Below are positions 9,438-55,624 of a stretch of DNA of 64,000 nt, in pieces. Below the pieces are notes generated by a model that did no database searches, was not told the origin of the DNA, and saw only the letters and a list, made by a program, of their open reading frames with translations. The translations under genes and the position numbers were made by a program. Numbering within the stretch: the first letter of the stretch is position 1; the number at the start of each line of letters is the position of its first letter. Source of the DNA: Patescibacteria group bacterium (GTDB lineage: Bacteria > Patescibacteriota > Microgenomatia > Curtissbacterales > GWA2-41-24); the NCBI GenBank assembly GCA_038063735.1, contig JBBTUN010000009.1:12491-76490 (forward strand). The letters are read 5' to 3'.

Positions 9438-9477
9438 AAGTTACAAGTTCTAAGTTATAAGTCGCAAGTTAAATTTA

Positions 9478-13951: not shown

Positions 13952-14155
13952 ATAACTATTAAGGCATGTTGAGGACAGAGAGTCAAAAATTTAGAGAGTT
14001 GGAGAAACAAAGAGTCAGAGAGTGATAGTTGGTGAGTTGGATTTTAGGTGGTAGATGATAGATGATAGAGATTGAGGATCTTATTGTTCGACCTTGTGGA
14101 GAACTTCTCTAAATTTGAAACTTCTCGACTACGCTCGAAGAATACAATATAATTC

Positions 14156-23590: not shown

Positions 23591-23908
23591 TCAGAAGTTA
23601 ACATGTTGGCGGCCTATTGGCACGATTTTTATTAGTAAGCGCCCTTTGAGGGCTTGAGTTACTTTTTCAAGAGTTTTGAGAGAGTAACCTGTGTAGTCTG
23701 CTGATTCGATTCTTGCGATATTGGATTGCCTGGTACCAACTAGTTTTGCCAGTTGAGTTTGAGTTAACCCGATTTTTTTTCTAAGATCACAAATCTGAAA
23801 AGCAATGTCCCATGCCTGACCGGCCTTTTTAAATTCCTCTTTTAATGAGGGGTCTTTCTTCAGTAGTTTTTCTGTTAATTTATCTAAATCGTCCTTTTTT
23901 CTTTTCAT
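23591..23908 (-). CDS. HTH XRE-family antitoxin (HigA-like)
   Basis: 105 aa. The C-terminal HTH (LTQTQLAKLVGTRQSNIARIE) is of Cro/C1 type. Start overlaps the stop of the upstream toxin gene (ATGA). Confidence 0.65.
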   Translation of the reverse strand: MKRKKDDLDKLTEKLLKKDPSLKEEFKKAGQAWDIAFQICDLRKKIGLTQTQLAKLVGTRQSNIARIESADYTGYSLKTLEKVTQALKGRLLIKIVPIGRQHVNF

Positions 23909-24261
23909 GAATCTTTCCTCGCTTTTAGTTCTTTTAATCTTTTCCTGGCAATTTCCAGTTCATTTGATGGTGTTTTCTGTTGCTTTTTAACAAAAACGTG
24001 CAGCAAGATAATTATCCTTCCTTTGTCAAAAGTATATATTATTCTTAGGATATCCGTTCCCGATTTTATTCTTAACTCCCATAATCCAGATTCGATATGC
24101 TTAGATAATGGTTCCTTGTGATAGCTTCTATTTCGTAGCTTCTCGATTCCTTCTCTAGCCTTTACAAGTAGTTGCCTGTTTCTGTTTGCAAGACCTAGAA
24201 AAAATTCTTCAATAGGACTTTTGCTTGAATTACTTTTGTAAAAGATTATTTCAAAATCCAT
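23905..24261 (-). CDS. RelE/ParE-superfamily toxin (HigB/Gp49-like), type II TA toxin
   Basis: 118 aa. Its size, position immediately upstream of an XRE antitoxin, and the conserved basic C-terminal half (GLWELRIKSGTDILRIIYTF...ILLHVFVKKQQKTP) are typical of HigB-like toxins. A perfect palindrome sits just upstream. Confidence 0.55.
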   Translation of the reverse strand: MDFEIIFYKSNSSKSPIEEFFLGLANRNRQLLVKAREGIEKLRNRSYHKEPLSKHIESGLWELRIKSGTDILRIIYTFDKGRIIILLHVFVKKQQKTPSNELEIARKRLKELKARKDS

Positions 24262-24269
24262 TTAATTAT

Positions 24270-24285
24270 ATCAAATTTGATATAT
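24270..24285. promoter_or_regulatory. perfect 16-bp palindrome ATATCAAATTTGATAT, candidate operator of the toxin-antitoxin operon
   Basis: Seen directly in the sequence, 9 nt upstream of the toxin start codon, inside an AT-rich promoter region (TATAGATTCAAT nearby). Confidence 0.5.
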
Positions 24286-24336
24286 AGATTCAATACTTAA
24301 ATCTAAGAAAAATTATATCACAGGCGAAAAATGTGG

Positions 24337-25868: not shown

Positions 25869-25870
25869 AA

Positions 25871-25945
25871 TCTATTAATTTTAAATTTTAAGTTTTTAAT
25901 TTTAATTGAATTTTTAATGTTTAAATTTTTAAAATTTCTTTTAGT
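25871..25945. repeat. AT-rich ~70-nt dispersed intergenic repeat, copy 1
   Basis: TTAATTTTAAATTTTAAGTTTTTAATTTTAATTGAATTTTTAATGTTTAAATTTTTAAAATTT aligns at roughly 85% identity with 43971-44050. Confidence 0.6.
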
Positions 25946-26477
25946 TCCACCTTGTTATTTCCATTTCTTTTTGAACATCCATTGCAAAAATCCACGTGAA
26001 GTTTGCAGCGACGATGAGCGCAATAACCGTAATTTGAGGGTATGTAACACCAGAAATTGTTGAAGCTATTAAAAAACCGGTGCTTAGCCATAAAAATATT
26101 AACCAGATGGTTGCTATGTGATAGAGGTGGAAACTTGAGAGAATTAGGTTTTCCAAGTTAAGCGACGCCAGTTTTTGCTGAGTTTGCGGGGTAACGTGTG
26201 TTTCATGCAGGAAATGGGCACGCATTAAAACAATTAGAGTGCCTGCGGCGGCTGTTAAAAACATGGCCAGATTGGAATAATTCTCGGCAATTACGTAGTT
26301 GGGCAGGTTTGCAAAGACAACTTTCGGCAGGACGTTAAAAGCGCCACCAAAAACCACTTCATATTTAAAATTAAAAAAATAGGCAGACACAAGCAGCCCA
26401 GCCATTTTGGCGATAATTAAAATAACTGCCGGGATTATGGCTTCGTCTATGAGTTTTGCTAGCGATTTGGCTACCAT
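25941..26477 (-). CDS. polytopic membrane protein, hypothetical
   Basis: 178 aa with five hydrophobic helices. Confidence 0.35.
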   Translation of the reverse strand: MVAKSLAKLIDEAIIPAVILIIAKMAGLLVSAYFFNFKYEVVFGGAFNVLPKVVFANLPNYVIAENYSNLAMFLTAAAGTLIVLMRAHFLHETHVTPQTQQKLASLNLENLILSSFHLYHIATIWLIFLWLSTGFLIASTISGVTYPQITVIALIVAANFTWIFAMDVQKEMEITRWN

Positions 26478-26487
26478 AAATTTAGTA

Positions 26488-26600
26488 TACCAGTAGAGGT
26501 CAGTAGTATCGGTGAGTCGGTATAGTCGGTAAGAAAATATTGTACTGATATTACTGACAATACTGAATATGCCGACATTTACTGATTTTTACTGAAATTT
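26488..26600. repeat. palindromically arranged array of 8-9 bp CAGTA/TCGGTA units (about 6 forward + 6 inverted)
   Basis: The left arm reads CAGTAGAGGTCAGTAGTATCGGTGAGTCGGTATAGTCGGTAAG, and the right arm TACTGATATTACTGACAATACTGAATATGCCGACATTTACTGATTTTTACTGA is its near reverse complement. Intergenic between two minus-strand genes. Confidence 0.65.
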
Positions 26601-27424
26601 TATATCTTCTTGGTGTATTGCTTGGAAATCCAGCCCAATTTGCCTTCGAAGGAAATTTTTATCCAATCTTCGGTTTCCTGGATAATTTCCAGTTTATCCC
26701 CTGTGTTTACCCTGCCAATTTCAGCCGAATCCAGCACCGGTTCTTTTCTTACTTTAAGATACCCCTGCGGAGTCTTGGCAATTTCTACTTCGGGAGTGTC
26801 GGTTTTAACGCTTTCGGTCGACGTGGGGTTTTTTGCCAACTCGGATGCCAATGTTACGCTGGCCACAAGCTTATATTTAGATGAGGTTTTTATGGCAAAT
26901 TCCCGATCTATAAAACCCTGGCCTTTGCTGATTCCTACTTTATGATCACCATTTTCTAAATCTGTAATAATTAGGGGTGTTTTACCTTTATATTTACCGT
27001 CTATGGTTATTTCTGCATCAGTTGGATTGGACGCAATAAATACGTCATTTTTACCCTTCTCCAGCCACAGAATTTCCCCACTTTGAGCCATTAAATTGTT
27101 ATTGAGTTCGCGATTTACGACAGTTAAGGTGCTTGGGTAAAGATCGATTTTACTTATATAGGAAGCTTCGGAAGCCGTAACTTTAAGGGTGTATGATCCA
27201 CTTTTGAGCTGGTCGGAGAAAAATGGGGTTTTCCCTAAGTGTTTCCCGTCCAGAAAAACCGAAGCTTCGGGGGTGGAAGTTACCTGCAGTGCGGCCGGCT
27301 TGGCAGTGCCAATGAGCGAGCAGCCACTTAATGAGGTTGCAAGTAGTAGGTAGAGGGTGGTAGGTAGCAGGTATTTTTTTACGACTAACGATGAACGATT
27401 AACAATGAACGTGATACTAGGCAT
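26600..27424 (-). CDS. lipoprotein with tandem PEGA domains and a C-terminal bacterial SH3 (SH3b) domain
   Basis: The track start is a TTG. The in-frame ATG begins MPSITF..., and the signal peptide ends in the lipobox LSGC. PEGA-like repeats are present (YTLKVTASEASY, HKVGISKGQGFIDREF). The C-terminal SH3b reads GYLKVRKEPVLDSAEIGRVNTGDKLEIIQETEDWIKI. Confidence 0.55.
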   Translation of the reverse strand: MPSITFIVNRSSLVVKKYLLPTTLYLLLATSLSGCSLIGTAKPAALQVTSTPEASVFLDGKHLGKTPFFSDQLKSGSYTLKVTASEASYISKIDLYPSTLTVVNRELNNNLMAQSGEILWLEKGKNDVFIASNPTDAEITIDGKYKGKTPLIITDLENGDHKVGISKGQGFIDREFAIKTSSKYKLVASVTLASELAKNPTSTESVKTDTPEVEIAKTPQGYLKVRKEPVLDSAEIGRVNTGDKLEIIQETEDWIKISFEGKLGWISKQYTKKI

Positions 27425-27714
27425 TGCAATTAAGGTAACATTTGCGCATAGTTGGCGCAAGCATTTTAACGATAATTTTACTTCTTTTGAAGCTATTATA
27501 TCAAACTATAAGCTATGAATTTAACTGTGGGGCTGTGGGTACCTAAAAGTTGGTTCCATTTGCTTTTTATCTTACTATCGGTTTGACTTTGGAGTTAGAA
27601 TTTGCTATAATTCGCCTTTGTAAATACCTCGACTATGGGCTTATAGTCCATATTCCCCTTCTCTTTTTTATAGGGGCGTATTGTGGCTTTGAAGCCTGAG
27701 GTTAGGAGAAAAAT

Positions 27715-30424: not shown

Positions 30425-32050
30425 TTAATATTCGCCCATGCCGCCGGGTGGCATCATTGGAGCTTTTTCCTTTTCGGGAAGATCGGTAATTAGTGCCTCT
30501 GTGGTTAGAATCATCATAGCAACAGATGATGCGTTTTGAAGAGCAGAGCGGGTAACCTTTACAGGATCAATAACGCCTGCTGTTACCAAATCTTCAAATT
30601 TTTCATTTGCAGCATTAAGCCCAACGTTACCGGTTGCTTTTTCTACTTCTTTTACAACCCATCCTGCGTCTAGCCCGCAATTTTCAGCCAGCTTTGCAAG
30701 AGGTTTGGTAAGCGCAGCTTTGACAATTTCGACTCCGATTCGCTCATCAACATCAGTTGCTGCGGTGATCATTTTATCCAAGACTTTGCTTGCGCGAACC
30801 AATGCTACTCCACCTCCAACTACGTAACCTTCTTCGACTGCCGCTTTGGTGGCATGGACCGCATCGTCTACTCTTTCCTTCTTTTCTTTAAGTTCAACCT
30901 CCGTGGCTGCACCAACATTAATGACTGCTACCCCACCGGAAAGTTTGGCAAGTCTTTCTTCGAGTTTTTCGCGGTCGAAGTCGCTGTCAGTTGTATCAAG
31001 TTCATTTTTGATTTGCTTGATTCTGCCATCTATTGCATTTTTTGTGCCTTTTCCGCCAACTATAATTGTGTTTTCTTTATCGGAAATGACCTGGTCGGCT
31101 TTACCTAAGTCGTCAACTGTAACAGACTCCAGTTTTCTTCCTAAATCTTCCGAGATGACATTTCCACCAGTCAAGACTGCGATATCTTCTAACATTTCTT
31201 TGCGGCGGTCACCAAAACCCGGAGCTTTAATTGCCAAAACGTTGAATGTGCTTCTGAGCTTGTTAACGACAAGGGTTGCCAGCGCTTCGCCTTCTACTTC
31301 GTCGGCGATAATAACCAAGTTTTTACTGATCTTGACAAAATTTTCCAGGAAAGCCAGAAGGTCGTTTAAGGAAGCTATTTTTTGGTCGGTTATTAATATG
31401 TGAGCGTCATCTATAATTGCTTTCATTTTGTCCGCGTCTGTCACAAAGTAAGGAGATATGTATCCCCTGTCAAACTCCATACCCTCTTTTGTGTCAACGG
31501 ATGTTTCCAGGCCTTTTGATTCTTCGACTGTAACTACGCCGTCGGGTCCGACTTTGTCGAGAGCTTCTGCAATCATTTTGCCGATTGTGGCGTCAGCGGC
31601 ACTAATCGTTGCGATCTTTTCGATTTCACCGTGGTCTGCGACTTTTTTGGCTGTTCTTTTGAGTTCTGCAACAACAGCTTCGGTGGCTTTTTCTACTCCC
31701 CGTTTTAAAACCATGGGGTTTGAGCCTGCTGTGACATTTTTGAGACCTTGGTCGACTATGGCTTGGGCAAGAACAGTGGCAGTTGTGGTGCCGTCCCCTG
31801 CTACGTCATTGGTTTTGCTTGCCGCTTCACGAACGAGCGATGCGCCCATATTTTCGAATGGGTCTTCAAGTTCAATTTCTTTAGCAACACTAACGCCGTC
31901 GTGGATTACGTTTGGGGCCCCCCACTTCTTGTCTAATGCGACATTTCTACCTTTAGGACCCAGAGTAGTTGCAACAGCCATGGCCAATTTGTCTACACCG
32001 CTTTTTAGCTTTGTTCGTGCTTCTTCTGCGTATAAAAGTTGTTTTGCCAT
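30425..32050 (-). CDS. groL: chaperonin GroEL (60 kDa)
   Basis: [15 protein letters not shown]... start, the [18 protein letters not shown] segment, and a C-terminal GGMG-type tail (PPGGMGEY). Confidence 0.95.
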
Positions 32051-32086
32051 AAATTAGTTGATTGTTGATAGTTGATGGTTCATAGC

Positions 32087-35840: not shown

Positions 35841-36728
35841 CTATAGGATACTATTGTCAATACGGACGTATACTTTGAATTTTTTTCTGTAGACATCCAG
35901 TACTTTTTTTTGGATATTCTTTGGATGGAAGAAAAGTTGAGTGTTCCCTATTTGCTCTATGGTTATTTTAGAACGCATGTAGTTTAGTTGGAAACTTTTT
36001 AGTAAGTTTTCGATAAGAGACAAGCAATAAGAGACAAGCAATATGTTTACGTGTGCTTTTTGCTTTTTGCTTTTTGCTTTTTGCTTTTCTGCCTTCCAAT
36101 TTGGCAGGTATTTATGGATCCAGTTGTTTGCCTTGACGAATTTTGCGTATGTGTTGTTTTTATCGTAGATTGGCTTTAATTGCGCTATTTCGTGGGCTGT
36201 GTACAGGTTTTCCTCACTGATTTTTAGATTTGCCTCATCTATAAAAATGTTGAGACAGGCTCTATTGTTTTGAAATTTTGAGCGCGGTGATCTTTTATAC
36301 GGAAGCAGAACAAGGTTTGCAAAGAATCTCGTCGTCCAGATTGTATTTTTAGCGGTGATAATTAGAAGGTCTATGTCATCGCTGGCTGTGCTGTTATTCA
36401 TGGACAAAGCGCCGGTTATGGCAACAAGATTGATTGTCGGGATCACTCTGAGTAGCTTTGAAAAGAATATTGCTTTAGCATATTTTTTCTTCGAGTATTT
36501 GTTTCTGGTTATTCTTTTTTTCACCAGGCCGTACCTTTTTTGCAGGAAAAAGTAGTTTTTTGTCTCCCCTATTTTATGTTCGGCTATGAGTATAGTGAGG
36601 GTTTTTGCTACTTGAGTTTTTGTCGCTTTATTTTCTACAAGGTAATTTTGTACTTCACCTGGAGTGAGAGGATAGTCAAAAATGTCACCATAGACAAGCG
36701 TTGCAAGAGTTGCCTGCTTTAAATTCAT
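35841..36728 (-). CDS. Pol-beta-superfamily nucleotidyltransferase-domain protein, function unknown
   Basis: GALSMNNSTASDDIDLLII matches the NTase G[SG]-x(9-13)-D-x-[DE] motif, and there is a further acidic residue downstream (FIDEAN). 295 aa. Contains an 8-bp x4.5 tandem repeat and a 14-bp tandem duplication in the C-terminal coding region. Confidence 0.4.
   Translation of the reverse strand: MNLKQATLATLVYGDIFDYPLTPGEVQNYLVENKATKTQVAKTLTILIAEHKIGETKNYFFLQKRYGLVKKRITRNKYSKKKYAKAIFFSKLLRVIPTINLVAITGALSMNNSTASDDIDLLIITAKNTIWTTRFFANLVLLPYKRSPRSKFQNNRACLNIFIDEANLKISEENLYTAHEIAQLKPIYDKNNTYAKFVKANNWIHKYLPNWKAEKQKAKSKKQKAHVNILLVSYCLSLIENLLKSFQLNYMRSKITIEQIGNTQLFFHPKNIQKKVLDVYRKKFKVYVRIDNSIL
36054..36088. 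repeat. octanucleotide tandem repeat (TGCTTTTT x4.5) inside the nucleotidyltransferase-domain gene
   Basis: Seen directly. It encodes KQKAKSKKQKAKS on the minus strand and lies adjacent to a perfect 14-bp tandem duplication ATAAGAGACAAGCA x2 (36013-36040). Confidence 0.8.
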
Positions 36729-41684: not shown

Positions 41685-43970
41685 ATGAGACAAAAAGACA
41701 TAGAGACAAAGACACAAATTAAAAATAGTTTTAAAGAGGAAAAAGAAATATACGCTTTTTGGGAAAAGGAAAAGTTTTTTTCATTCGACTCAAAAACTTC
41801 AAAAAATATTTATTCTCTTTTAATGCCCCCGCCCAACTTAACCGGTGAATTGCATTTGGGTCACGCCCTTCAGCACTGCATCATGGATGCTATTGCTAGA
41901 TATAAACGCCTCTCTGGTTTTGAGGTTTTACTTCTTCCTGGCGTGGACCATGCCGGCATCCAATTTGAAGGAACGCTAGACAAAAAACTTTCCAAAGAGG
42001 GCAAGACGAAGAAAAGTTTGGGCAGAGAAAAATGGTTAGAAGAAGCATGGAAATTTAAAGATGAAGTTTATAAATCTTTTCATGATACCTGGACATTATT
42101 TGGTATTTCTGCAGACTGGTCTCGTGAAGTTTTTACTTTGGATAATGGACCAAAAAAAGCTGTTTTTGAAGAATTTAAAACTTTTTGGGATAAAGGATTA
42201 ATTTATAAAGGGCCATACATTGTGCAGTGGTGTCCTAAGTGCAACACGGCAATTGAAGATGTGGAAATGGAATACCTGGAAAAACGCGAGACACTTTACT
42301 TCTTAAAATATGGCCCTTTGACATTGGCAACGGCAAGGCCCGAAACAAAGTTTGGAGACACTGCTATGGCGGTTAATCCCACGGACAAAAGGTATAAGGA
42401 CTTTATCGGAAAAGAATTTGAAATAGAAACACTAAACGGCAAAAAGATGATGATTGTTGTAGGGGATGATGCCGTTGATCCAAAATTTGGAACAGGAGTT
42501 ATCAAAGTAACCCCAGGGCATGATTTTACCGATTATGAAATTGGCAAGCGTCATAATTTGCCAATTATTCAGGTAATTAGTAAGGAGGGAAGACTCACGG
42601 AATTGGCCGGGAAATATGCCGGTATGAAAGTCTTGGAAGCAAGGGCAGTGATGATTCCCGATTTAAAAGCGAAAGGGATCTTAGTAAAGGAGGAGGAATA
42701 TATTCATAACGTCTCCGTTTGTGAAAGATGCAAAAGCGTCGTTGAGCCGTTAATTTCCGAGGAATGGTTTGTAAAAATGAAAGATATTGCAAAAGGCGGA
42801 ATTGCTGCGATTAACAAAGATCAGATAAAGTTCTTACCAAAAAATTATAAAGGGATTATTTTGGATTGGCTTGAGGAATTGCATGACTGGTGTATTTCCA
42901 GATCTCTTTGGTGGGGACATAGGATTCCTGTTTGGTATAAGAGAAGTGATAAGAGACAAGCGATAAGCAAAGCTTTTCTACGAATAAGTGATAAGCCAGA
43001 AAGGTCTGAAATGAGAGTTTCACTTGAGTCGCCCGGAAAAGGCTGGGTGCAGGATGAGCAGGTTTTGGATACTTGGTTTTCGTCGGGGTTGTGGCCATTA
43101 AGCACTCTGGGCTGGCCGAAGGTTACGGGTCCTGTCAGTGATTTCCCTCCCGTTAGTGCTCGTTCGAGTGAACAATCAAAAGGTAATCTAAAAGAAACTG
43201 TCGAACTGCGCGCTGACAGGAGCCTTTCCACCACTGCCACCCGTTCCCGGGATGGACTTTATGAGTCGGCCTTTCCGTGGGATTTTGAAATTAGCGCACC
43301 GGAAATTAAATACCTGTGGATTGCCAGGATGATTATGCTTTCAGTTTATTTCACCGACGAAATTCCTTTTAAAACGATGTTTTTCCACGGCATGTTAAGG
43401 GACTTGGAAGGGCGTAAATTTTCTAAATCTTTAGGAAATGGTATCGAACCGCAGTACTTGGTTGATAAGTGGGGCGTCGATGCCTCCCGGATGGCTTTAT
43501 ACACTTATTCGATTCCGGGAAGGGACGGCCGTGTTAACAAGGCAGTTCTGGATGAAAGGGGCAAAAACTTCAGGAATTTTGGAACTAAAATTAGAAACAT
43601 TGCACGGTTTGTGCTGGAGCTTAAGCGACAAGAGACAAGCAACAAGAGACAAGAGAAAAATGAATACAGTGATCAATGGATAGTGGAGGAATTGGATAAG
43701 ACTATAAAAAAAGTTACCAAGAATTTGGATAATTTAGAACTTCATTTGGCAGTGGAGGAATTGTACGAGTTTGTGTGGCATAAGTTTGCCGACAAATATA
43801 TTGAATCAGCAAAGGAAAGAAGAGGAGATGCGCAGCCAACTTTGGAAAATGTCCTGAAGCAGGTTTTGATTCTTCTGCATCCTTTCATGCCGTTTTTGAC
43901 TGAGGAAGTTTATCAGATGTTTGATGTAAAAAAGAAATCGATAATGTTGGAAGAATGGCCTTCTGTCTAA
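41685..43970 (+). CDS. valS: valyl-tRNA synthetase (shortened, 761 aa) with an unusual low-complexity insertion
   Basis: PPPNLTGELHLGHAL (HIGH), ATARPETKFGDTAMAVNPTDKRY and GHDFTDYEIGKRHNLP (ValRS signatures), WCISRSLWWGHRIP, DTWFSSGLWPLSTLGWP, and KFSKSLGN (KMSKS). There is a ~40-aa Ser/Arg-rich insert between LGWP and the WIARMIM motif. Confidence 0.85.
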   Translation: MRQKDIETKTQIKNSFKEEKEIYAFWEKEKFFSFDSKTSKNIYSLLMPPPNLTGELHLGHALQHCIMDAIARYKRLSGFEVLLLPGVDHAGIQFEGTLDKKLSKEGKTKKSLGREKWLEEAWKFKDEVYKSFHDTWTLFGISADWSREVFTLDNGPKKAVFEEFKTFWDKGLIYKGPYIVQWCPKCNTAIEDVEMEYLEKRETLYFLKYGPLTLATARPETKFGDTAMAVNPTDKRYKDFIGKEFEIETLNGKKMMIVVGDDAVDPKFGTGVIKVTPGHDFTDYEIGKRHNLPIIQVISKEGRLTELAGKYAGMKVLEARAVMIPDLKAKGILVKEEEYIHNVSVCERCKSVVEPLISEEWFVKMKDIAKGGIAAINKDQIKFLPKNYKGIILDWLEELHDWCISRSLWWGHRIPVWYKRSDKRQAISKAFLRISDKPERSEMRVSLESPGKGWVQDEQVLDTWFSSGLWPLSTLGWPKVTGPVSDFPPVSARSSEQSKGNLKETVELRADRSLSTTATRSRDGLYESAFPWDFEISAPEIKYLWIARMIMLSVYFTDEIPFKTMFFHGMLRDLEGRKFSKSLGNGIEPQYLVDKWGVDASRMALYTYSIPGRDGRVNKAVLDERGKNFRNFGTKIRNIARFVLELKRQETSNKRQEKNEYSDQWIVEELDKTIKKVTKNLDNLELHLAVEELYEFVWHKFADKYIESAKERRGDAQPTLENVLKQVLILLHPFMPFLTEEVYQMFDVKKKSIMLEEWPSV

Positions 43971-44075
43971 TTTTTAATTTTAAGTTTTAAATTTTTATTG
44001 AATTATTAATGTTTAAATTATTTAAAATTTTAATTTGATTGAAAATTATAAATTAAGAATTTAAAATTAAATAGT
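43971..44075. repeat. AT-rich ~70-nt dispersed intergenic repeat, copy 2, between convergent valS and rplY
   Basis: TTTTTAATTTTAAGTTTTAAATTTTTATTGAATTATTAATGTTTAAATTATTTAAAATTTT has the same word order as copy 1. Confidence 0.6.
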
Positions 44076-44154
44076 AATTCCCGCAAAATTCTTGCAGTAA
44101 TTACCGCATCTATTTAAGTATCAAATGTGTCAAAAGTATCTAGAGTATCAAAGG

Positions 44155-45445: not shown

Positions 45446-45866
45446 TACGATTATTGACGGACTAAGTGACGCGCCTATTTCTATTGGGGATAGGTTGACT
45501 ACTTTGGGAGTTGAGGAGAATACTCTTTCTACATTTTCCAAGGAACTTTTGGAAACTGTTGTTTATGGAAGCAGCTTTTTGAAGTTTTTACAGGAAAACA
45601 GAGACAAGCTTGGCATAAATGGGGAAATTCCGGCGGAAGCGTTGCCGGAGGATTTTAAAGACGCTTTTGAAGAGGGTGAGGCGACTTTAGAAAACAGACT
45701 CGTTGCTGCAGGCTTTCCTAAAGAAGACCTTTCTGCTATTTTTGGCGAGGATACCTTACAACTTTCTCTTTCTGCCCAAGAATTCACCGCTTTTATAGAA
45801 AAGAACCCAGACAAATTTTTAGCAGGAATAAAAAACCTGGCAGGAGTGGGGGCTACCGATGCCTGA
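45426..45866 (+). CDS. hypothetical acidic protein, second gene of the operon
   Basis: 146 aa and Glu/Asp-rich. The stop overlaps the next ORF's start by 8 nt. Confidence 0.3.
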   Translation: MKQLTLDTIIDGLSDAPISIGDRLTTLGVEENTLSTFSKELLETVVYGSSFLKFLQENRDKLGINGEIPAEALPEDFKDAFEEGEATLENRLVAAGFPKEDLSAIFGEDTLQLSLSAQEFTAFIEKNPDKFLAGIKNLAGVGATDA

Positions 45867-48423
45867 CGACGAGAAGAAAGATGAATTAACTACCCCCGAA
45901 GCTGGTAGTAACACGCCGCCTAGTGCTGAGCAATTAGATGCCGGGCAAACTGCGGCAAGACAAACTGAAGATGCCGCGAGAAAAGCTTCCGAAGCAGGTG
46001 GGCTAGAACAAGGTCTAAAAAGCGTAGCGTCTGCTGGTGATGCTGGACAGGAAGGAAATGGTGGCAATATAGCGCCTGAGCAACCTGGACCAAGAGTTCC
46101 AATTGAACCTGGCGAAAGTCTTACCACCGAGGAATATTTTGATTCTGTTTCCAAAGCTCCAAACACAGATGCACTACTTGCGAAAATGCCGCCTGGATTA
46201 AGAGCGGGTTACGATCGTTACACAGCAGAACATCCTATTGAGCCAAGAGATGGTCTTAATAGATTAGGCGATGGATCTGTTGATTACGGTGATGGGGTAA
46301 TTGGACCTTCTGCTGAAGATATTGCCCGAGCTAAAGGACCGCCTGTGGAGTCTGGTGCGGGAGCTAAAGAAATTTTAAACCAGGGGGCAGAAGAGCTTAG
46401 ACGCAGAGAAGCTGCAGCCGGTGGCGGTGAACCGCCGGTGGATGTTCCTCCGGTTGCTGCGGCAGATAACGACGGTAATGGTAACGAAACAGATGGTGCA
46501 ACTCCCCCTGTAGAAAAGATGTCAAGATACACGGTTGCTGATTCAAACGAAAGTATTGCACGCGATATGGTGAGGAGGCACGACGCAGGTGAGGATGCAG
46601 ACCCCAATGATGGTTTTTTGGAGTTGCCACTTGAAAAAAAAGCTTATGTGATAAGTGATTTGTATGGACTTTACCTCGAGAGGGGTGTTGATGATAAAGA
46701 TCATAAGGAATTTCTGGATGATATTAGAGAAGGTTTTGAAGATGAAATTGCCGCTCTACCGGATGGGGATGAGAAAACGAGATACGAGCAGGAAATGGCT
46801 GACTGGGATAAGTACTTGAGGGTCGAAGGTACGGCAAGTCCTGATACTGGTGGAGCGTCTGAAAATGTCGACCAGGCAAAAGGCATACGTGATAGTTTAG
46901 ACGCGGGCATGGATCCGGAGGAACTGCGAAGGACCATTGCAGGCAATCCGGAAGCAGCAGCAATTTTAGATAGCGTACTGGCAGAAAGAGGTGCAGCGCC
47001 GCCCGCGCCTGATGCAAGTACTCCGGAAACCCCAGAACCGGCAAGGCCAAGCGCGCCAACTCCCGAACCTGCTGCTCCCTCTCGTGCAGACACACTAAGG
47101 GCACGCGCGGCAGATAGTTTGAGTGAGGAAGAGTTGGCTTATATGAGGTTGGCGGACATGAAACCCAAGGCACTCGCAAGAGAGTTGAGAAGGAAACAAG
47201 CCAGATTAAAAACATTAGAAAGACTCTTAGATAGAACAGCAGATGATACAAAAGCGGCAGAGTATGCAGAAAAAGCTGGGAAGCTGGAGGACGAGATCGA
47301 CTTTATCAAGCAAGTTATGGAGGACGAGGGTGTCGATGCTGATGAGGCAGGCAATGGAGGTACAAGTAATAAAAGTGAGAAGCAGACGGAAGCTGCCAGA
47401 AAACTGGAAGAGAAGATGGATGACTACAGGAGGTTCGGTGAGAGTACTTTTGATGAGTTAAAGAAAACGGAAGACAAGGAGCAAGGTGTTCTAAAGGGTT
47501 TGAGAGAGTCATTTTCTCGTGCAAAGTCAAAAGAGGAGCGAGACTTAATTAATAGTAAAATCGCCGAGGCTGAAGCAAGGCTCGCTGTTATAAAAAGCTT
47601 TAAAGCAGAAAAAGAAGTTGGACACTTAGAGGATAAGAACGACGAGGCGATTAAAGAAACACAACTAAGACGTAGAGAGCTGGGTGAAACTGCTTATCTT
47701 GAAGGGAATATTAAGAATAACAAAACAGCACTGGAAGCGCTAGATAAGGATATTCTGGCAATCGAGGAGAAAATTCTAAAGGAGAGAGAAGGGAGCGAGG
47801 AATGGAAACGGCTCAACCACCAAAAACTAGAACTTAGTAAGCGGGCAAATAAGATGCGAGAGACTTTGCGCTTAGATGAGGACGCTTTGGAAGTTGCCAA
47901 AGAAAAGGCAAAGAAAGATGTAAAACTTAGATCGACATGGGAAAATATAGATCAAAAGAGCCCCGAAGAGTACAGGGCGATGTCCCGTGAAGAACAGATA
48001 AAATACCTTGATGAGGTAGCAAAGGTTTTGCCTGAAGGAAAGAGATATAATTTCGATAATCTTAACGGAAGAGCAATGGCTGGGCAACCTTTGTCCATTG
48101 AAGAGCGTGCGTATCTGCAGAACGAGATTTCACATAGACTACTTGCTGGGACATACGATGCTAAATGCATCACAAAATTAGTCCAATATCCAGAAATTGC
48201 AGATGGTGTGATTGAGAAATTCATGTACCATAAAAGTTTGGAGAAGTGGCGAAGAGAGAATTGTCCGAATGGTTGGGAAAAGGTGATTGATCTTGCTAAG
48301 AAATATCCTGCTTTATTTGCGATACTGGCTGCATTGATGGCAGCTGGAGTCACGGCTTCTGGTGGCGGTATTCCAGCTTTGGGATTTGCAAGTATGGGGG
48401 CTAAAAAAGGAATTTTTGGGTAG
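45859..48423 (+). CDS. large (854 aa) intrinsically disordered / coiled-coil protein with a single C-terminal membrane anchor, function unknown
   Basis: The N-terminal ~420 aa are Ala/Gly/Pro/Glu/Asp-rich and encoded by DNA of visibly higher GC than the surroundings. The middle ~280 aa are Lys/Glu-rich heptad coiled coil. The C-terminus has one hydrophobic helix (LFAILAALMAAGVTASGGGIPALGFA). No signal peptide. Confidence 0.45.
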   Translation: MPDDEKKDELTTPEAGSNTPPSAEQLDAGQTAARQTEDAARKASEAGGLEQGLKSVASAGDAGQEGNGGNIAPEQPGPRVPIEPGESLTTEEYFDSVSKAPNTDALLAKMPPGLRAGYDRYTAEHPIEPRDGLNRLGDGSVDYGDGVIGPSAEDIARAKGPPVESGAGAKEILNQGAEELRRREAAAGGGEPPVDVPPVAAADNDGNGNETDGATPPVEKMSRYTVADSNESIARDMVRRHDAGEDADPNDGFLELPLEKKAYVISDLYGLYLERGVDDKDHKEFLDDIREGFEDEIAALPDGDEKTRYEQEMADWDKYLRVEGTASPDTGGASENVDQAKGIRDSLDAGMDPEELRRTIAGNPEAAAILDSVLAERGAAPPAPDASTPETPEPARPSAPTPEPAAPSRADTLRARAADSLSEEELAYMRLADMKPKALARELRRKQARLKTLERLLDRTADDTKAAEYAEKAGKLEDEIDFIKQVMEDEGVDADEAGNGGTSNKSEKQTEAARKLEEKMDDYRRFGESTFDELKKTEDKEQGVLKGLRESFSRAKSKEERDLINSKIAEAEARLAVIKSFKAEKEVGHLEDKNDEAIKETQLRRRELGETAYLEGNIKNNKTALEALDKDILAIEEKILKEREGSEEWKRLNHQKLELSKRANKMRETLRLDEDALEVAKEKAKKDVKLRSTWENIDQKSPEEYRAMSREEQIKYLDEVAKVLPEGKRYNFDNLNGRAMAGQPLSIEERAYLQNEISHRLLAGTYDAKCITKLVQYPEIADGVIEKFMYHKSLEKWRRENCPNGWEKVIDLAKKYPALFAILAALMAAGVTASGGGIPALGFASMGAKKGIFG

Positions 48424-48513
48424 GTCGGTGGGTCGGTAGAGTCAGTAAAATCAGTAATGTAGGTAAAATCGGTATAGTCGGTAATTTCAGTGTTTTCAGT
48501 AAAGTCGGTAAGC
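48422..48513. repeat. direct array of about 11 GTCGGTA/TCAGTA 8-9 bp units, same family as the 26.5 kb array
   Basis: GTCGGTGGGTCGGTAGAGTCAGTAAAATCAGTAATGTAGGTAAAATCGGTATAGTCGGTAATTTCAGTGTTTTCAGTAAAGTCGGTAAGC. Located between convergent genes. Confidence 0.65.
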
Positions 48514-48521
48514 AAAAATAA

Positions 48522-51482
48522 CTATTTCTTGGAAACTTTTATTAAAAATTGGCGGTCGGTATTTAAATTTGTTTGAGCGGTTACGTTTTGTTTGCCGCCA
48601 ACGCCAGCGCTGCAATCAGAAGATCCTGAATCTAGTTCAGTATGACAAGGAGAAGCAGAGTCGATTTTTAGGTAGGCTGGCAGGTTAAAGGTGAATTTAA
48701 ATGGGTCTTTTTCTGTACCGGGTTGTTTTTGCACATAAAGAGAATATGCCGGGGCTTGCTCGAGCTTTATGTTTTTTGGAATTCTGTAGACAAAAGTTAT
48801 GGTTCTTTCTTCTTTAACAGGCACTTCCACAAGAGTCGCAAAAGCGGTTAAGTTTCCTTGAGTCGTCACTTCTACTTTGGCCTCATCGCTGGTGGCTTGA
48901 TTTTTTAACTTATCTTTAGATGCGACATTTTGCCCGTCGTCATAACTTTCCAGGCCACTTCCAAGTGGCGTAAAAACTCTTAAATAATTAACGTATGTTC
49001 CACCCGGCCAAGTATCTGCCGGGCTATTATTTTTGTAGGTTATTGCCAGTTTGGCCACGAGTCCCGCATCTCGGTCTACAGTCATTTCGTAATTAACATC
49101 TCTATTTAGATATCTATTTACTTTATTGGCGCCCACATTTGCTTCGGACAGGGCTAAATAGTCGCTTGTGGCATTTTTGTTGTCCTGGGGATTGTAGGTA
49201 AACGGTGGTGTTAAATTGCTCCAATTTTTAACTTTTACATACGTAGAAAGGCTGGGGTTATCAAAAGAGATTAGCATGTGTTTTTGGGCGAGTGCTTCAC
49301 CGGTTGTGGTAAGTAGCGCAAGCCAGGGTAAGTGGTCGTTCCCCTGGGTGGGAGTTGAGAAACTTGCAACGACTTTACCAATCAGTTTATTTGTAAGGGA
49401 GGTAAAGAAATCGCGCTTTTGAGTGGAACCGGGGAAAAAGCCGACTTCGGCATAATATTCCCCTTTATCAAAAAGGTTACCAGCCGTTATTTCTTCGTTG
49501 TAATCGTCAAGTTTTATGGGGCCAATTTTTTCCAGCAGTTTTTGCATGTAGTCAAGGTCTATGGCAATTACTCCATCAACTGTTTTGCCTGTTTCCTTTT
49601 TATAAAAATCGCGGGCGGTTTTGGCGTTGATTTCGAAATCCGTACTCCAATTGGAATCCCGCAGGTATAGTTGCTTGACACCCAACTTTTCCACAAGAGG
49701 CGCGGGCGGATTGATCTTTTCTTTGAGTTGGCCGTCTATTGTATAAATATCCTCGACATTAATTGACTTTAGTTTGCCACTTTCCAAAACTATTTCTCCG
49801 AAATTACCGATGAAACCTCCTCCCGGCCTTAGCTCTGAGTTATTCTGGAGCAAGATTAGGTAAGTTTTTTTTGAATCGATACCAATAAGATCTGCAGTTA
49901 GGTTTGTTAACTCAAGCGTATTAAGGCTTAGTTCGTTTAAAGATTTTATGTTTGTTTCCAGGCTGTTTAACTTAGATTTAAAGATGCCGTTTTTTTGGGC
50001 ACTTTGGACTAGTGCCAGGGCCCTGGCGCTTTCGAAATAGGCCTTGCTTATTAAGGCCTGTGGGTCCTCTATATTGAAAGTGCTTTTGGCCGGTTTGTCC
50101 GAGGCGATGTACTCAAGATCGACAGCAAGCGTCTTTGCTCCGCTAATGAAATTGGCAAAGGCAGACGCAGTTAGCTGGGCACTTTCGAGTGAGTTACTGA
50201 CGCTTTGAATTTTTTTGGGAATGACAAGAGAGACGGGATAAGTTAATTTATTGAATTCCCAATTTGCACTGCCAAAAGAATTTTTGGCACTCGTTGCTTT
50301 TTTAAGCGCTGTATCAAAATCCCCGGACTGAAGTTTTATTTGCGCGCTCTTTAGAGAATTTACACCAGAGTAAAGATCCAGGCTAATTTTGCCCGTGAAC
50401 ACAACGATAACCAGTACAAAAACAAATAAAACTGCGAGTTTTGATTTGAAGCTAAATCCAAAGCTTGGTAATTTGGGTAACTTTTTGGGTAGTGATTTTT
50501 TAAGTTGAGGCGAAACTTCATGCTTTTCTACTGTTTTTGGTAAAACTACTTCGGGACGCGCGAGAAGAGGGTCCAGGAAACTAAGCTTTTTTACCATATC
50601 TTTGTCTTTAAAAAATGTCAGTGTGTTTTCTAAGCCTTCCTTCAAATTAAACCTGGGCGAGAAACCAAGATCATGGATTCTGACAACAGGTTCGGGTTTT
50701 GGTTTTTCGATTTGCGGCTCACCGGCAAAAAAGAGGCTTAGTTCTTTTTGAAGTAGAATGTGGGCGCTGTTTTTTATTTCGTAGGCACAAGACAGCGCCG
50801 TCAGGGGGCTAGTGGAGATTATAAACCGGATGTTTTTGCCAGAATCGTTGGCCATGAATTTGTTGAATGCATGAAGCGCATCGTCGATATATGTTGGATA
50901 AATCATGGTCAAGCCTTCACTCTCCAAAATTATTTTGTCGGTTTGGGTTGCCTGGGTAATGAGGTAAATAAGCTCGTTATTTTCAAAGTAACTATCTTTG
51001 GTGTTTTTTTCGTACTTATTGTGAAGCTTTATGCCGGGGCCATAAATATCTCCCATTAAAAAAAGTTTGATGTTTTTTTTCGCTTCTTCGTCGCGCGCCG
51101 CAAAATCCAGGAAATCTGAACTTGTGGTAATTTTGGCAACAAAAATGACCTTTGAGGTACCACTTCTTGCTTTTGAAATTAGGTTCGAGGTGACGGCGGA
51201 GACTTTTGAAGCGGAAAAATCTCCTCCGGCATTTAAATCTTCACTTGTTAAGTGGATGATTAGATCAAATGTGGGTAAATGGTTTGGGAAAGGCTGTGCC
51301 AGATCTATGTCTACAAAGGTAAATCTATGATCCTGGAGAACATCTTCTTGCGGTTGAGTTTTGCCCGCGCCATAAATTTGGTAACCTCTTTTGAGCAAGT
51401 TTTTTGCAAGCGCGGAACCAAAACAACTGCCTACATCGGTTATTAATATTTGCGATTTTGTTGTTTGGGCAGGGGCATCCAT
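48522..51482 (-). CDS. fusion protein: N-terminal NAD-dependent epimerase/dehydratase (SDR) domain, TM helix, C-terminal DUF4012-like extracytoplasmic domain
   Basis: The N-terminus ILITDVGSCFGSALAKNLLKRGYQIYGAG is a Rossmann motif. A TM helix lies at ~aa 345-365 (LAVLFVFVLVIVVFTG). The ~600-aa C-terminal domain has the size and composition typical of DUF4012 proteins found in polysaccharide loci. Confidence 0.45.
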   Translation of the reverse strand: MDAPAQTTKSQILITDVGSCFGSALAKNLLKRGYQIYGAGKTQPQEDVLQDHRFTFVDIDLAQPFPNHLPTFDLIIHLTSEDLNAGGDFSASKVSAVTSNLISKARSGTSKVIFVAKITTSSDFLDFAARDEEAKKNIKLFLMGDIYGPGIKLHNKYEKNTKDSYFENNELIYLITQATQTDKIILESEGLTMIYPTYIDDALHAFNKFMANDSGKNIRFIISTSPLTALSCAYEIKNSAHILLQKELSLFFAGEPQIEKPKPEPVVRIHDLGFSPRFNLKEGLENTLTFFKDKDMVKKLSFLDPLLARPEVVLPKTVEKHEVSPQLKKSLPKKLPKLPSFGFSFKSKLAVLFVFVLVIVVFTGKISLDLYSGVNSLKSAQIKLQSGDFDTALKKATSAKNSFGSANWEFNKLTYPVSLVIPKKIQSVSNSLESAQLTASAFANFISGAKTLAVDLEYIASDKPAKSTFNIEDPQALISKAYFESARALALVQSAQKNGIFKSKLNSLETNIKSLNELSLNTLELTNLTADLIGIDSKKTYLILLQNNSELRPGGGFIGNFGEIVLESGKLKSINVEDIYTIDGQLKEKINPPAPLVEKLGVKQLYLRDSNWSTDFEINAKTARDFYKKETGKTVDGVIAIDLDYMQKLLEKIGPIKLDDYNEEITAGNLFDKGEYYAEVGFFPGSTQKRDFFTSLTNKLIGKVVASFSTPTQGNDHLPWLALLTTTGEALAQKHMLISFDNPSLSTYVKVKNWSNLTPPFTYNPQDNKNATSDYLALSEANVGANKVNRYLNRDVNYEMTVDRDAGLVAKLAITYKNNSPADTWPGGTYVNYLRVFTPLGSGLESYDDGQNVASKDKLKNQATSDEAKVEVTTQGNLTAFATLVEVPVKEERTITFVYRIPKNIKLEQAPAYSLYVQKQPGTEKDPFKFTFNLPAYLKIDSASPCHTELDSGSSDCSAGVGGKQNVTAQTNLNTDRQFLIKVSKK

Positions 51483-55476: not shown

Positions 55477-55624
55477 AACATTCCTTCCCGCCAGTGCTCG
55501 CTCGACAAAATAATTGATCGATAGTTAACGAAACTGGCTAGAGCTGCGCGCTGTCGGGATCCTTTCCAGTTGTGCCACCCGCTCAGTGTTGGACCATTTG
55601 ATATCTGAAATTGGTAATTGATAA

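What the first reader, a model, noticed from the sequence alone, without database searches (positions are those of the whole stretch)
26488..26600. Family of 8-9 bp GTCGGTA/TCAGTA repeat arrays at two intergenic loci, one palindromic and one direct
At 26.49-26.60 kb about six CAGTA/TCGGTA units are followed by about six of their reverse complements (TACTGA/TACCGA), making a ~110-bp imperfect palindrome. At 48.42-48.51 kb about 11 units of the same family occur as direct repeats with 8-10 bp periodicity, close to one helical turn. Neither array is coding, both sit at gene ends, and the unit is too short for CRISPR. One-helical-turn periodicity of a short motif is what iteron-like arrays or cooperative binding sites of a DNA-binding protein look like. 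The palindromic copy could also act as a bidirectional terminator or recombination site.
Basis: seen in the sequence. Interest (0 to 1): 0.55.

Follow-up and report, generated by a model that had tools for sequence, protein, structure and literature searches.

The report
Dispersed 9-bp intergenic repeat arrays
A groundwater Curtissbacteria-like (CPR) genome fills at least three gaps between genes with arrays of a 9-bp repeat whose 6-bp core TCRGTA stays constant while the 3-bp spacer drifts, which suggests that something recognises the core, but the arrays are not replication iterons and their job is unknown.

Summary
Locus 1 (26490-26595) has 5 forward and 6 reverse units. Locus 2 (48425-48510) has 10 direct units with a strict 9-bp period. 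Seven TCRGTA pairs sit 9 bp apart, against 0 in shuffles.

I found a third locus in the same genome, built like locus 1: stop codon, TCRGTA arm, TACYGA arm, start codon.

Across 29 units the hexamer core is about 95% conserved and the spacer about 50% (p=6e-16). Spacers hold G but never C (28:0).

Strains differ by exactly one 9-bp unit, so the arrays change by slippage.

Relatives at 55-60% protein identity lack arrays at loci 1 and 2. At locus 3 one relative has an array with a drifted core (TCRGA).

The chromosomal origin (dnaA, dnaN, DnaA boxes) lies 9-31 kb away, so these are not iterons. No Rfam family, sigma-70-like promoter or intrinsic terminator matches.

The genome is generally rich in 7-9-bp intergenic arrays. 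The closest analogues are cyanobacterial STRR hairpins, REP/BIME elements and RHH-type operator arrays.

Best reading (about 0.4): a lineage-specific dispersed repeat family whose core is recognised by a sequence-specific factor. Function is unproven. Interest is moderate.

The parts
26490..26531 (+). Locus 1, left arm: 5 forward units (CCAGTA, TCAGTA, TCGGTG, TCGGTA, TCGGTA). Strain variants carry a sixth unit here.
26532..26542 (.). Locus 1, central A/T-rich spacer (AGAAAATATTG). It forms the hairpin loop together with the innermost reverse unit.
26543..26595 (-). Locus 1, right arm: 6 units in reverse orientation (TACTGA x3, TGCCGA, TACTGA x2 as read on the + strand).
48425..48510 (+). Locus 2: 10 direct units (TCGGTG, TCGGTA, TCAGTA, TCAGTA, TAGGTA, TCGGTA, TCGGTA, TCAGTG, TCAGTA, TCGGTA). 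The period is a strict 9 bp from 48433 onward. Base counts are G 26 and C 9 on the + strand.
26600..27460 (-). Upstream gene of locus 1 (PEGA + SH3 lipoprotein-like). Its stop codon lies 4 nt before the first unit.
25941..26477 (-). Downstream gene of locus 1: a 178-aa membrane protein conserved in Curtissbacteria. Its ATG lies about 12 nt after the last unit.
45859..48423 (+). An 854-aa protein with no known family. Its stop codon TAG directly abuts the first unit of locus 2.
48522..51482 (-). Convergent DUF4012 gene. Its stop codon lies 11 nt from the last unit of locus 2.
48555..48561 (+). A solitary GTCGGTA inside the 3' end of the DUF4012 coding sequence, 45 bp beyond the array. It may be a chance copy.

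Best explanation
What it is (shown). These are members of a lineage-specific, dispersed family of degenerate 9-bp tandem-repeat arrays. They occupy whole intergenic gaps in a Candidatus Curtissbacteria-like (CPR/Patescibacteria) chromosome, and at least three loci exist in the genome. Each unit has a constrained hexamer core T-C-R-G-T-A followed by a 3-bp spacer that varies freely among A, T and G. Arrays occur as direct runs (locus 2) or as two opposed runs that together form a long imperfect palindrome reaching from one gene's stop codon to the next gene's start codon (locus 1 and the third locus). They gain and lose whole units by slipped-strand mispairing.

How it most likely works (inferred). 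The core is kept by selection because a sequence-specific factor recognises it many times in a row. The most likely factor is a double-stranded-DNA-binding protein that binds head-to-tail every 9 bp, spiralling around the helix as omega, ParG and MetJ-type repressors do on their 7-9-bp arrays. The resulting nucleoprotein block would sit at a gene boundary and act as an operator, insulator or roadblock. Alternatively, the block could be the recognition target that lets the family spread. In the opposed configuration the array also puts a long hairpin into the polycistronic mRNA, as cyanobacterial STRR and enterobacterial BIME elements do.
For: 1. Non-random, localised arrays.
2. A third locus in the same MAG. 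It lies between the stop of a Metallophos gene and the ATG of an M16 peptidase gene (L263 9845-9995), with 8 forward and 8 reverse units at 9-bp spacing. It came from the metagenome pattern scan. NCBI protein accessions MEK7581386/388 there and MEK7581455 in the window suggest (inference from numbering) that it belongs to the same assembly.
3. Over 29 units, the five fixed core positions deviate from consensus in 8 of 145 cells, against 45 of 87 cells for the spacer (Fisher p=6e-16). The R position is 16 A to 13 G. Neutral decay of duplicated 9-mers would hit all positions equally.
4. The three loci share the core but not the spacers or flanks, so they are not copies of one fixed sequence.
5. 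Both orientations occur within a single gap. The hairpins are poorly optimised, with A.C mismatches on the transcribed strand of locus 1 (-25.9 against -43.8 kcal/mol). This points to recognition of the motif rather than selection for pairing.
6. At the ortholog of locus 3 a relative keeps an array in the same gap, starting at the stop codon, with the related core TCRGA.
7. The only difference among 10 near-identical strain contigs is one extra 9-bp unit.
Against: - No binding protein is identified. The neighbouring genes scanned against Pfam carry no DNA-binding domain, apart from a HigA-like HTH about 2.6 kb from locus 1 that has its own palindrome.
- The orphan winged-helix gene near locus 3 also occurs in a relative without arrays.
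- Arrays are absent at the orthologous sites of loci 1 and 2 in relatives. There the gaps are only 40-53 bp and 2 bp, so the arrays are dispensable gains.
- Spacers show a strong strand asymmetry (G 28, C 0). A purely double-stranded reader does not predict this, and it fits an RNA or single-strand constraint better.
- The genome is generally rich in short tandem arrays (37 against 14.9 +/- 4 in shuffles), so a mutational origin is clearly at work.
- Only about 105 kb of the genome could be examined.
Confidence: 0.4

Rival explanations
1. Functionless slippage product. The arrays are short-tandem-repeat 'junk' produced by replication slippage in a genome prone to it, and they are tolerated only in intergenic DNA. 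On this view the shared unit reflects common descent or ectopic copying, not recognition.
For: - Whole-unit copy-number polymorphism.
- Arrays are absent from orthologous gaps in relatives at two of three loci.
- The window holds 37 tandem arrays against 14.9 +/- 4 in shuffles.
- In about 104 kb, 18 of 57 arrays lie in the 7.2% of DNA that is intergenic, with many different units.
- Perfect heptads occur even inside ORFs.
- Relatives show the same habit.
Against: - It cannot explain about 95% core conservation against about 50% spacer conservation (p=6e-16), or G 28 to C 0 in spacers.
- It cannot explain why three unlinked gaps carry the same core with unrelated spacers.
- The locus 3 array persists between species whose proteins are only 55-60% identical.
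Confidence: 0.25
2. RNA-level element. The arrays act in the transcript. The opposed arrays would form an intercistronic hairpin that stabilises the upstream mRNA, attenuates read-through, is cut by RNase III, or couples translation of the two genes. The direct array would be an unstructured 3'-UTR platform. One such platform is a Rho-loading site: the TACYGA-sense RNA of locus 2 has C 26 to G 9 and no structure, and the TCRGTA-sense RNA offers one UC dimer every 9 nt.
For: - Hairpins fold far better than shuffles: z -3.9 to -6.7 at locus 1 and z -4.1 to -4.5 at locus 3.
- They span exactly from stop codon to start codon.
- Strand-asymmetric spacers fit a single-strand constraint.
- Locus 2 is unstructured, with MFE -1.5 kcal/mol on the - strand, and has C well above G on that strand.
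- Cyanobacterial STRR hairpins sit likewise between co-transcribed genes (PMC2670836).
Against: - The locus 1 hairpin is much weaker on the transcribed strand than on the other strand.
- The relative's locus 3 array does not fold significantly (z -1.0).
- Locus 2 has no hairpin, so pairing is not the shared feature.
- No terminator-like site is found.
- No Rfam family matches.
- Whether the organism has Rho or RNase III could not be checked.
Confidence: 0.2
3. Contingency (phase- or rheostat-variable) locus. Changes in unit number tune expression of the downstream surface or membrane genes, as the 7-bp repeats upstream of Haemophilus hmw genes do.
For: - Unit-number polymorphism between strains from different wells, lying in the leader of a three-gene membrane-protein operon.
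Against: - Locus 3 is invariant in 4 contigs and locus 2 in 3 contigs.
- Locus 2 lies between convergent stop codons, with no downstream gene to tune.
- Units are degenerate rather than the perfect repeats typical of hypermutable tracts.
Confidence: 0.07
4. Iterons or origin-type sites, or a centromere. The arrays would be initiator or partition-protein binding sites controlling replication or segregation.
For: - Repeated short motif in direct and inverted arrays.
- Loci 1 and 2 lie within 31 kb of dnaA.
Against: - The origin markers (rnpA-yidC-jag, dnaA, dnaN, DciA and the DnaA boxes) lie at 55-60 kb without any TCRGTA unit.
- Cumulative GC skew runs monotonically through both loci.
- No rep, parA or parR-like gene adjoins the arrays.
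- The unit and period do not match those of iterons.
- Relatives lack the arrays.
Confidence: 0.02
5. Coding repeats or bridging mini-ORFs. The 9-bp (3-codon) units would encode tripeptide repeats, or short peptides whose translation couples the flanking genes, as in MIRU elements.
For: - The period is a multiple of 3.
- The - strand of locus 2 reads (L/F/I/Y)-T-D/E repeats in frame with the DUF4012 gene after its stop codon.
- Mini-ORFs run from an ATG inside loci 1 and 3 to a stop overlapping the downstream start; at locus 3 this is an ATGA overlap (my reading of the sequences).
Against: - Frames differ between loci, so no peptide is conserved.
- Spacings of 8 and 10 bp break the frame.
- The 187-aa ORF over locus 2 is antisense to a real gene.
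- Open frames of this length are expected by chance in these sequences.
Confidence: 0.03

Closest known systems
Cyanobacterial STRR (short tandemly repeated repetitive) sequences
   Same: Short tandem units are dispersed at many intergenic sites. They often form a hairpin between co-transcribed genes such as hupS-hupL, and their function is still unknown (PMC2670836).
   Different: STRR units are 7 bp and near-perfect, and they are restricted to filamentous cyanobacteria. Here the period is 9 bp, with a fixed 6-bp core and free spacers, in a CPR bacterium. There is no sequence relationship.
REP/BIME extragenic palindromes of enterobacteria and pseudomonads
   Same: Both are extragenic and lie at 3' ends or between cistrons. 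Both have units in alternating orientation that give mRNA hairpins close to stop codons, and both are dispersed families (my own knowledge of the family).
   Different: A REP unit is itself a 20-40-nt imperfect palindrome with a GTAG head and is mobilised by a RAYT transposase. Here the unit is a non-palindromic hexamer core, and the palindrome arises only from two opposed arrays. No RAYT gene was seen.
Operator and centromere arrays of RHH proteins (omega heptads of pSM19035, ParG/parH tetramer boxes with AT spacers, MetJ metboxes) and ToxR heptads at ctx
   Same: A short conserved core with A/T-rich spacers is repeated every 7-9 bp in direct and inverted blocks, so the protein wraps the helix rather than binding one face (my own knowledge of these systems).
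   Different: Those arrays lie next to the genes they regulate or partition, and next to the gene of their binder. No such gene adjoins these arrays, and one array lies between convergent gene ends.
Plasmid or chromosomal iterons
   Same: Repeated binding-site-like motif in direct and inverted arrays.
   Different: Iterons are 17-22 bp, phased with the helix, and lie in an origin next to rep or dnaA. None of these features holds here.
Tandem repeats of Borg elements (PMC9879509)
   Same: Both are lineage-specific, fast-evolving tandem repeats found by metagenomics. They are often intergenic or start at gene ends, and slippage is discussed as their origin.
   Different: Borg repeats are perfect, A-rich, and differ from locus to locus, each arising independently. 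Here the units are degenerate around a shared core that recurs at several loci.

Membership tests
Iterons (origin-linked initiator sites) | Located in or next to a replication origin or initiator gene | tested here: not met
   dnaA lies at 57351-58706, dnaN at 58968-60110, and DnaA boxes at 57206, 58775 and 58818. The arrays lie 9 and 31 kb away, and the flanking genes are unrelated to replication.
Iterons (origin-linked initiator sites) | Units of about 17-22 bp spaced in helical phase | tested here: not met
   The core is 6 bp and the period 9 bp. Observed spacings were 9 bp 17 times, 8 bp 4 times and 10 bp 3 times.
CRISPR array | Repeats of 23-55 bp separated by unique spacers of similar length | tested here: not met
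   Units are 9 bp with 3-bp spacers.
REP/BIME | Extragenic, at 3' ends of genes or between cistrons | tested here: met
   All three loci fill gaps that start within 0-6 nt of a stop codon.
REP/BIME | The unit is itself an imperfect palindrome of 20-40 nt with a conserved GTAG head | tested here: not met
   The unit TCRGTA plus 3 nt is not palindromic. Locus 2 has no fold.
REP/BIME | A cognate RAYT (Y1 transposase) in the genome | not tested
   No such gene appears in the Pfam listings of about 105 kb.
STRR-type dispersed short tandem repeats | The same short unit is tandemly repeated at several unlinked intergenic loci | tested here: met
   Three loci in one MAG, and none elsewhere in the roughly 105 kb examined.
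STRR-type dispersed short tandem repeats | Heptanucleotide unit, heterocystous cyanobacteria | tested here: not met
   The period is 9 bp and the host is a Curtissbacteria-like CPR bacterium.
RHH-type operator/centromere arrays | Short conserved core, A/T-rich spacers, 7-9-bp period, direct and inverted blocks | tested here: met
RHH-type operator/centromere arrays | Adjacent gene for the binding protein or partition ATPase | tested here: not met
   Pfam scans of the neighbouring genes find none. The wHTH gene near locus 3 does not co-vary with arrays.
RHH-type operator/centromere arrays | Cooperative protein binding to the repeats | not testable with these tools
   Needs EMSA, footprinting or DAP-seq.
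Intrinsic (Rho-independent) terminator | G+C-rich stem-loop followed by a U tract | tested here: not met
   No terminator-like site was reported at either locus.
Rho utilisation (rut) site | An unstructured stretch of at least about 70 nt with C above G, downstream of a stop codon | tested here: inconclusive
   This is met only for the - strand transcript of locus 2 (C 26, G 9, MFE -1.5 kcal/mol). It is not met for the TCRGTA-sense RNAs. Whether the genome has a rho gene is unknown.
Contingency locus (simple-sequence phase variation) | Unit-number polymorphism within the population | tested here: met
   One extra 9-bp unit in 3 of 10 contigs at locus 1. Loci 2 and 3 are invariant.
Contingency locus (simple-sequence phase variation) | Repeat number switches the reading frame or the promoter spacing of a gene | tested here: inconclusive
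   The 9-bp unit cannot shift a frame, and no promoter-like site was found in the gap.

The most novel reading that the evidence does not exclude
A CPR lineage uses arrays of a 9-bp unit as a new kind of gene-boundary punctuation. The hexamer core TCRGTA would be read many times in a row by a dedicated, still unknown factor: either a DNA-binding protein forming a roadblock or insulator filament, or a ring-shaped RNA-binding or termination factor that takes one UC per 9 nt. In a streamlined genome that shows few classical terminator or Shine-Dalgarno signals, this would end or separate transcription and translation units. The other repeat families seen in neighbouring gaps (GTATCAAAR 9-mers, RGTTRAT heptads) would be parallel 'words' of the same system.
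Probability: 0.12. Interest if true: 0.75.

Novelty: new variant of a known kind. Interest (0 to 1): 0.42.

Why it matters
Almost nothing is known about how CPR/Patescibacteria mark the ends of genes and operons, or about how new intergenic DNA arises in genomes that are about 93% coding. Here roughly 100-150 bp of new DNA with a shared, constrained hexamer core has appeared in gaps that are 2-53 bp long in related species, and it still changes by whole units between neighbouring aquifer wells.

If the core is read by a protein or RNA-binding factor, this is a compact, testable entry point into CPR gene regulation. The array DNA could be used directly as bait.

If it is not read by anything, it documents an STRR-like selfish or mutational repeat family outside cyanobacteria. 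It would also serve as a strain marker for groundwater populations.

Tried and rejected
1. GTDB genome scan with TCRGTR x4.
2. Metagenome scan with TCRGTA-DDD x3. This also saturated, mostly with unrelated perfect repeats and what looks like a minisatellite of an unrelated (possibly eukaryotic) genome, L158. Only L165 was relevant.
3. Rfam at gathering and E-value thresholds. Only sub-threshold eukaryotic snoRNA and miRNA noise appeared. There are no tRNAs.
4. Promoter and terminator scans found nothing at the arrays.
5. The orphan winged-helix (Trans_reg_C) gene two genes downstream of locus 3 as a candidate binder. It has only 6 homologues. The 69%-identical one sits in the same M16-wHTH-NDK context in L271, whose 20 kb has no TCRG chain. 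The relative that does keep an array (L267) lacks the gene. Rejected as unsupported.
6. Extending the contig by 10 kb on each side found no further arrays.
7. Origin or iteron reading: rejected.
8. Coding or mini-ORF reading: frames are not conserved, so it is kept only as a minor rival.
9. Untested resemblance, recalled from memory: GTCGGTAGAG in locus 2 equals part of the tRNA D-arm consensus (GCUCAGUCGGUAGAGC). Only one unit matches, so I treated it as coincidence.
10. Literature searches found no description of such arrays in CPR, and nothing on Rho-dependent termination in Patescibacteria.

Full report
**Setting.** The window is a chromosomal segment of a Candidatus Curtissbacteria-like bacterium (Microgenomates, CPR/Patescibacteria). 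Exact protein look-ups place it in Hainich aquifer assemblies, NCBI MAGs labelled 'Patescibacteria group bacterium' and Logan assemblies. The nearest homologues of a flanking protein are named Candidatus Curtissbacteria. G+C is about 41%. By my longest-ORF map, about 93% of the roughly 104 kb examined is coding. The window carries groES/groEL, csrA, rplY and leuS, and also the origin neighbourhood rnpA-yidC-jag, dnaA, dnaN and DciA.

**Checking the observation.** Both arrays exist as described.
- Locus 1 has five forward cores at 26490-26531 and six reverse cores at 26543-26595.
- Locus 2 has ten direct cores at 48425-48510. From 48433 onward the period is exactly 9 bp.
- TCRGTA occurs 52 times in the window against 36 +/- 5.8 in shuffles. 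The whole excess lies in the arrays, and the 37 other copies match expectation. The motif is therefore neither a compositional effect nor enriched or avoided elsewhere.
- Pairs of cores 9 bp apart occur 7 times against 0 in 100 shuffles.
- Chains of at least 4 TCRG at 8-10 bp spacing are expected 0.02 times per 64 kb.
- Locus 1 fills the 122-bp gap between the stop of a PEGA/SH3 gene and the ATG of a 178-aa membrane-protein gene. Both genes are on the - strand.
- Locus 2 fills the 98-bp gap between the convergent stops of an 854-aa protein with no known family and a DUF4012 protein.
- The same sequences occur in independent assemblies, so they are not artefacts.
- The period is 9 bp rather than a helical turn.

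**A third locus.** The one metagenome pattern scan was mostly filled by unrelated repeats. It did return a Hainich contig (L165, the same contig as L264). Its proteins carry NCBI accessions MEK7581386 and MEK7581388, only about 70 numbers below that of the window's DUF4012 protein (MEK7581455). I infer from this numbering that they come from the same MAG. Between the stop of a Metallophos gene and the ATG of an M16 peptidase gene lie eight forward cores. Eight increasingly degenerate reverse cores follow, again at 9-bp spacing (L263 9845-9995). The layout matches locus 1 read in the direction of transcription: stop codon, TCRGTA arm, short loop, TACYGA arm, start codon. The RNA folds at -44.5 kcal/mol on one strand and -42.8 on the other (z about -4). 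A further 20 kb flanking the window holds no array.

**Anatomy and constraint.** I aligned 29 units from the three loci.
- Core positions read T 28/29, C 28/29, R (16 A, 13 G), G 29/29, T 28/29 and A 24/29.
- The three spacer positions are close to random among A, T and G.
- Deviations from consensus are 8 of 145 cells in the core against 45 of 87 in the spacer (Fisher p=6e-16).
- On the TCRGTA strand the spacers contain 28 G and no C (p=7e-9). The degenerate reverse arm of locus 3, which was not part of this count, contributes two C.
- Neutral decay or homogenisation of duplicated 9-mers would treat all nine positions alike. The core is therefore constrained, or the arrays are built by a process that specifies it.
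- The loci share the core but not the spacers or flanks, so they are not copies of one fixed mobile sequence.

**Dynamics.** Ten near-identical contigs covering locus 1 differ only by one extra 9-bp unit (TACTGACCT). It is present in the NCBI MAG and in the two well-H51 assemblies. The hairpin is kept in that variant, at -29.2 kcal/mol. Loci 2 and 3 are invariant in the available contigs. TRF also sees an 18-bp super-period at loci 2 and 3. This is consistent with slippage by one or two units.

**Comparison with relatives.** The nearest other genomes share only 55-66% protein identity.
- At the ortholog of locus 1, two syntenic relatives have gaps of 53 and 40 bp with no TCRGTA. One of them carries a CTTGATA heptad array instead.
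- At the ortholog of locus 2, one relative has the two convergent genes 2 bp apart. The other lacks the three-gene cluster altogether.
- At the ortholog of locus 3, a relative has an array in the same gap, starting at the stop codon, with a related core. It reads TCGGAGAG TCGGAATAC TCGGAGAAT TCAGAGAAC ... TCAGATAG TCAGAAAT and has only a short reverse part. It shows no significant fold (z -1.0).
- Two arrays are therefore recent gains of about 100 bp. The third is older and has drifted in concert.

**Background.** The genome is generally rich in short tandem arrays: 37 in the window against 14.9 +/- 4.0 in Markov shuffles, mainly with periods 7/14/21 and 9/18. Over about 104 kb, 18 of 57 arrays lie in the 7.2% of DNA that is intergenic. 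Whole gaps are made of heptads, for example groES-groEL and the convergent gap at 9438-9477. A second 9-bp family (GTATCAAAR) recurs at several loci and is conserved between species. Perfect heptads occur even inside ORFs. A slippage-prone background is thus evident. The TCRGTA family stands out by its core/spacer contrast and its recurrence.

**What it is not.**
- Not iterons or an origin. The DnaA boxes and dnaA/dnaN lie elsewhere, GC skew runs straight through both loci, and the unit size is wrong.
- Not CRISPR.
- Not a known RNA family.
- Not an intrinsic terminator or sigma-70-like promoter by the simple scans.
- Not coding. The 187-aa ORF over locus 2 is antisense to a real gene, and spacings of 8 or 10 bp break any frame.

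**Most likely mechanism.** Three steps are shown. This is a dispersed family with a constrained hexamer core. It gains and loses whole units. It is placed at gene boundaries.

The next step is inferred. The core is recognised repeatedly by a sequence-specific factor. I favour a double-stranded-DNA-binding protein for three reasons.
- Both orientations occur within one gap.
- The hairpins are poorly optimised. Locus 1 folds at -25.9 kcal/mol on the transcribed strand and -43.8 on the other, because differences between the arms give A.C mismatches rather than G.U pairs.
- The one direct array has no structure at all.

Arrays of a short core with A/T-rich spacers every 7-9 bp, in direct and inverted blocks, are how RHH repressors and centromere-binding proteins (omega, ParG, MetJ) and ToxR bind. 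This comparison rests on my own knowledge of those systems. What the complex would do (roadblock, insulator, operator or spreading signal) is open.

Several points weaken this reading.
- No binder was found.
- The spacer strand asymmetry fits an RNA or single-strand constraint better.
- The arrays are dispensable in relatives.

I therefore give it 0.4. The main rivals are a functionless slippage family (0.25) and an RNA-level role (0.2). The RNA-level role could be an intercistronic hairpin of the STRR/BIME kind, or an unstructured 3'-UTR platform such as a Rho-loading site.

**Comparison with known systems.** Functionally and architecturally the nearest things are cyanobacterial STRR hairpins between co-transcribed genes (PMC2670836), REP/BIME elements and RHH-type operator arrays. 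Borg tandem repeats (PMC9879509) are a metagenomic parallel for fast, lineage-specific repeat formation. The arrays meet the dispersed intergenic short-tandem-repeat definition. They fail the defining features of iterons, CRISPR, REP units and intrinsic terminators. I file them as a new variant of a known kind.

**Verdict.** This is a real, statistically solid and partly conserved repeat family with clear evidence of constraint but no demonstrable function. It is moderately interesting (0.42).

Noticed in passing
window 32051-32086, 9438-9477, 55598-55626, 14052-14069; L257 8148-8191 and 9753-9780; L135 9965-9995; L271 11088-11152: Whole intergenic gaps are built from 7-bp tandem units of related types (TAGTTGA, AAGTTAY, CGTTAAT, TTGATAA, CTTGATA, GTCTAAC). 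Examples are the groES-groEL spacer and a convergent gap. In about 104 kb, 18 of 57 TRF arrays fall in the 7.2% of DNA that is intergenic.
   Followed up: partly
window 44117-44154; L263 8905-8950; L267 770-812 and 8856-8898: There is a second 9-bp repeat family, GTATCAAAR, with 4-5 units per array. In the window it abuts the rplY stop codon. It fills the ArgRS-to-Metallophos gap both in this genome and in a relative at about 55-60% protein identity, so the unit is conserved across species.
   Followed up: partly
window 44076-44108 (reverse orientation); L269 11903-11939; L270 9408-9440: Three tandem 11-12-bp units of the type TGCGGTAATTA lie next to rplY in three different species. This looks like a conserved operator-type site.
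   Followed up: no
window 25869-25940 and 43968-44071; L271 8483-8591; L132 6195-6295: A dispersed A/T-rich element of about 70-110 bp (…TAATTTTAAGTTTTAAATTTTTA…TTGAATTTTTAATGTTTAAATT…) recurs at different gene ends in this genome and in relatives. Mean column identity is 74% in alignment A4.
   Followed up: partly
window 56981-57350, 58707-58967, 60105-60149: This is the origin neighbourhood: rnpA-yidC-jag, dnaA, dnaN and DciA. DnaA-box-like 9-mers lie at 57206 (TGTGGAAAA), 58775 and 58818 (TTTTCCACA). A perfect 21-bp x2.1 repeat (AATTGACCTTTGGCATTTGAC) straddles the dnaN stop codon. Cumulative GC skew does not turn here.
   Followed up: partly
window 6785-6818 and 36054-36088: Perfect heptad repeats lie inside long ORFs: ACGGTTG x4.9 in a UvrD/PDDEXK helicase gene and TGCTTTT x5 in a 295-aa ORF. 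Because 7 is not a multiple of 3, this shows DNA-level slippage acting within coding sequence.
   Followed up: no
window 26477-26563 (- strand); L263 9919-10003; window 32050-32083 (- strand): Mini-ORFs run from an ATG inside the gap to a stop that overlaps or abuts the downstream start codon. Locus 1 has 34 codons. Locus 3 has 27 codons (MLTIPVTLIVPIILIAQTLQNYRLYRNI) with an ATGA overlap. The groES-groEL gap has 9 codons. This is reminiscent of MIRU-type translational coupling but is within chance expectation.
   Followed up: partly
window 45080-48423; L130 9046-12497; L269 7883-11019; L270: A three-gene cluster of unknown proteins (121, 146 and 854 aa) precedes locus 2. The large, low-complexity, C-terminally anchored protein is 854, 890 or 785 aa in different genomes. 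The whole cluster is absent in one relative, so this is a variable region.
   Followed up: no
window 23591-24336: This is a HigB/HigA-like pair (Gp49 toxin plus HTH_3 antitoxin). A perfect palindrome, ATATCAAATTTGATAT, lies in the upstream gap and is presumably its own operator. It is unrelated to the TCRGTA arrays.
   Followed up: no
L123 about 100-330; L246; L050 5100-5230: Unrelated genomes from the GTDB and metagenome scans also hold non-coding 9-bp arrays with CAGTG, CGGTG or CGGTA cores. Some are arranged as opposed blocks inside larger inverted repeats (L123, L246). One lies directly upstream of a start codon in a Clostridium MAG (L050). Given the size of the databases this may be chance.
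   Followed up: no
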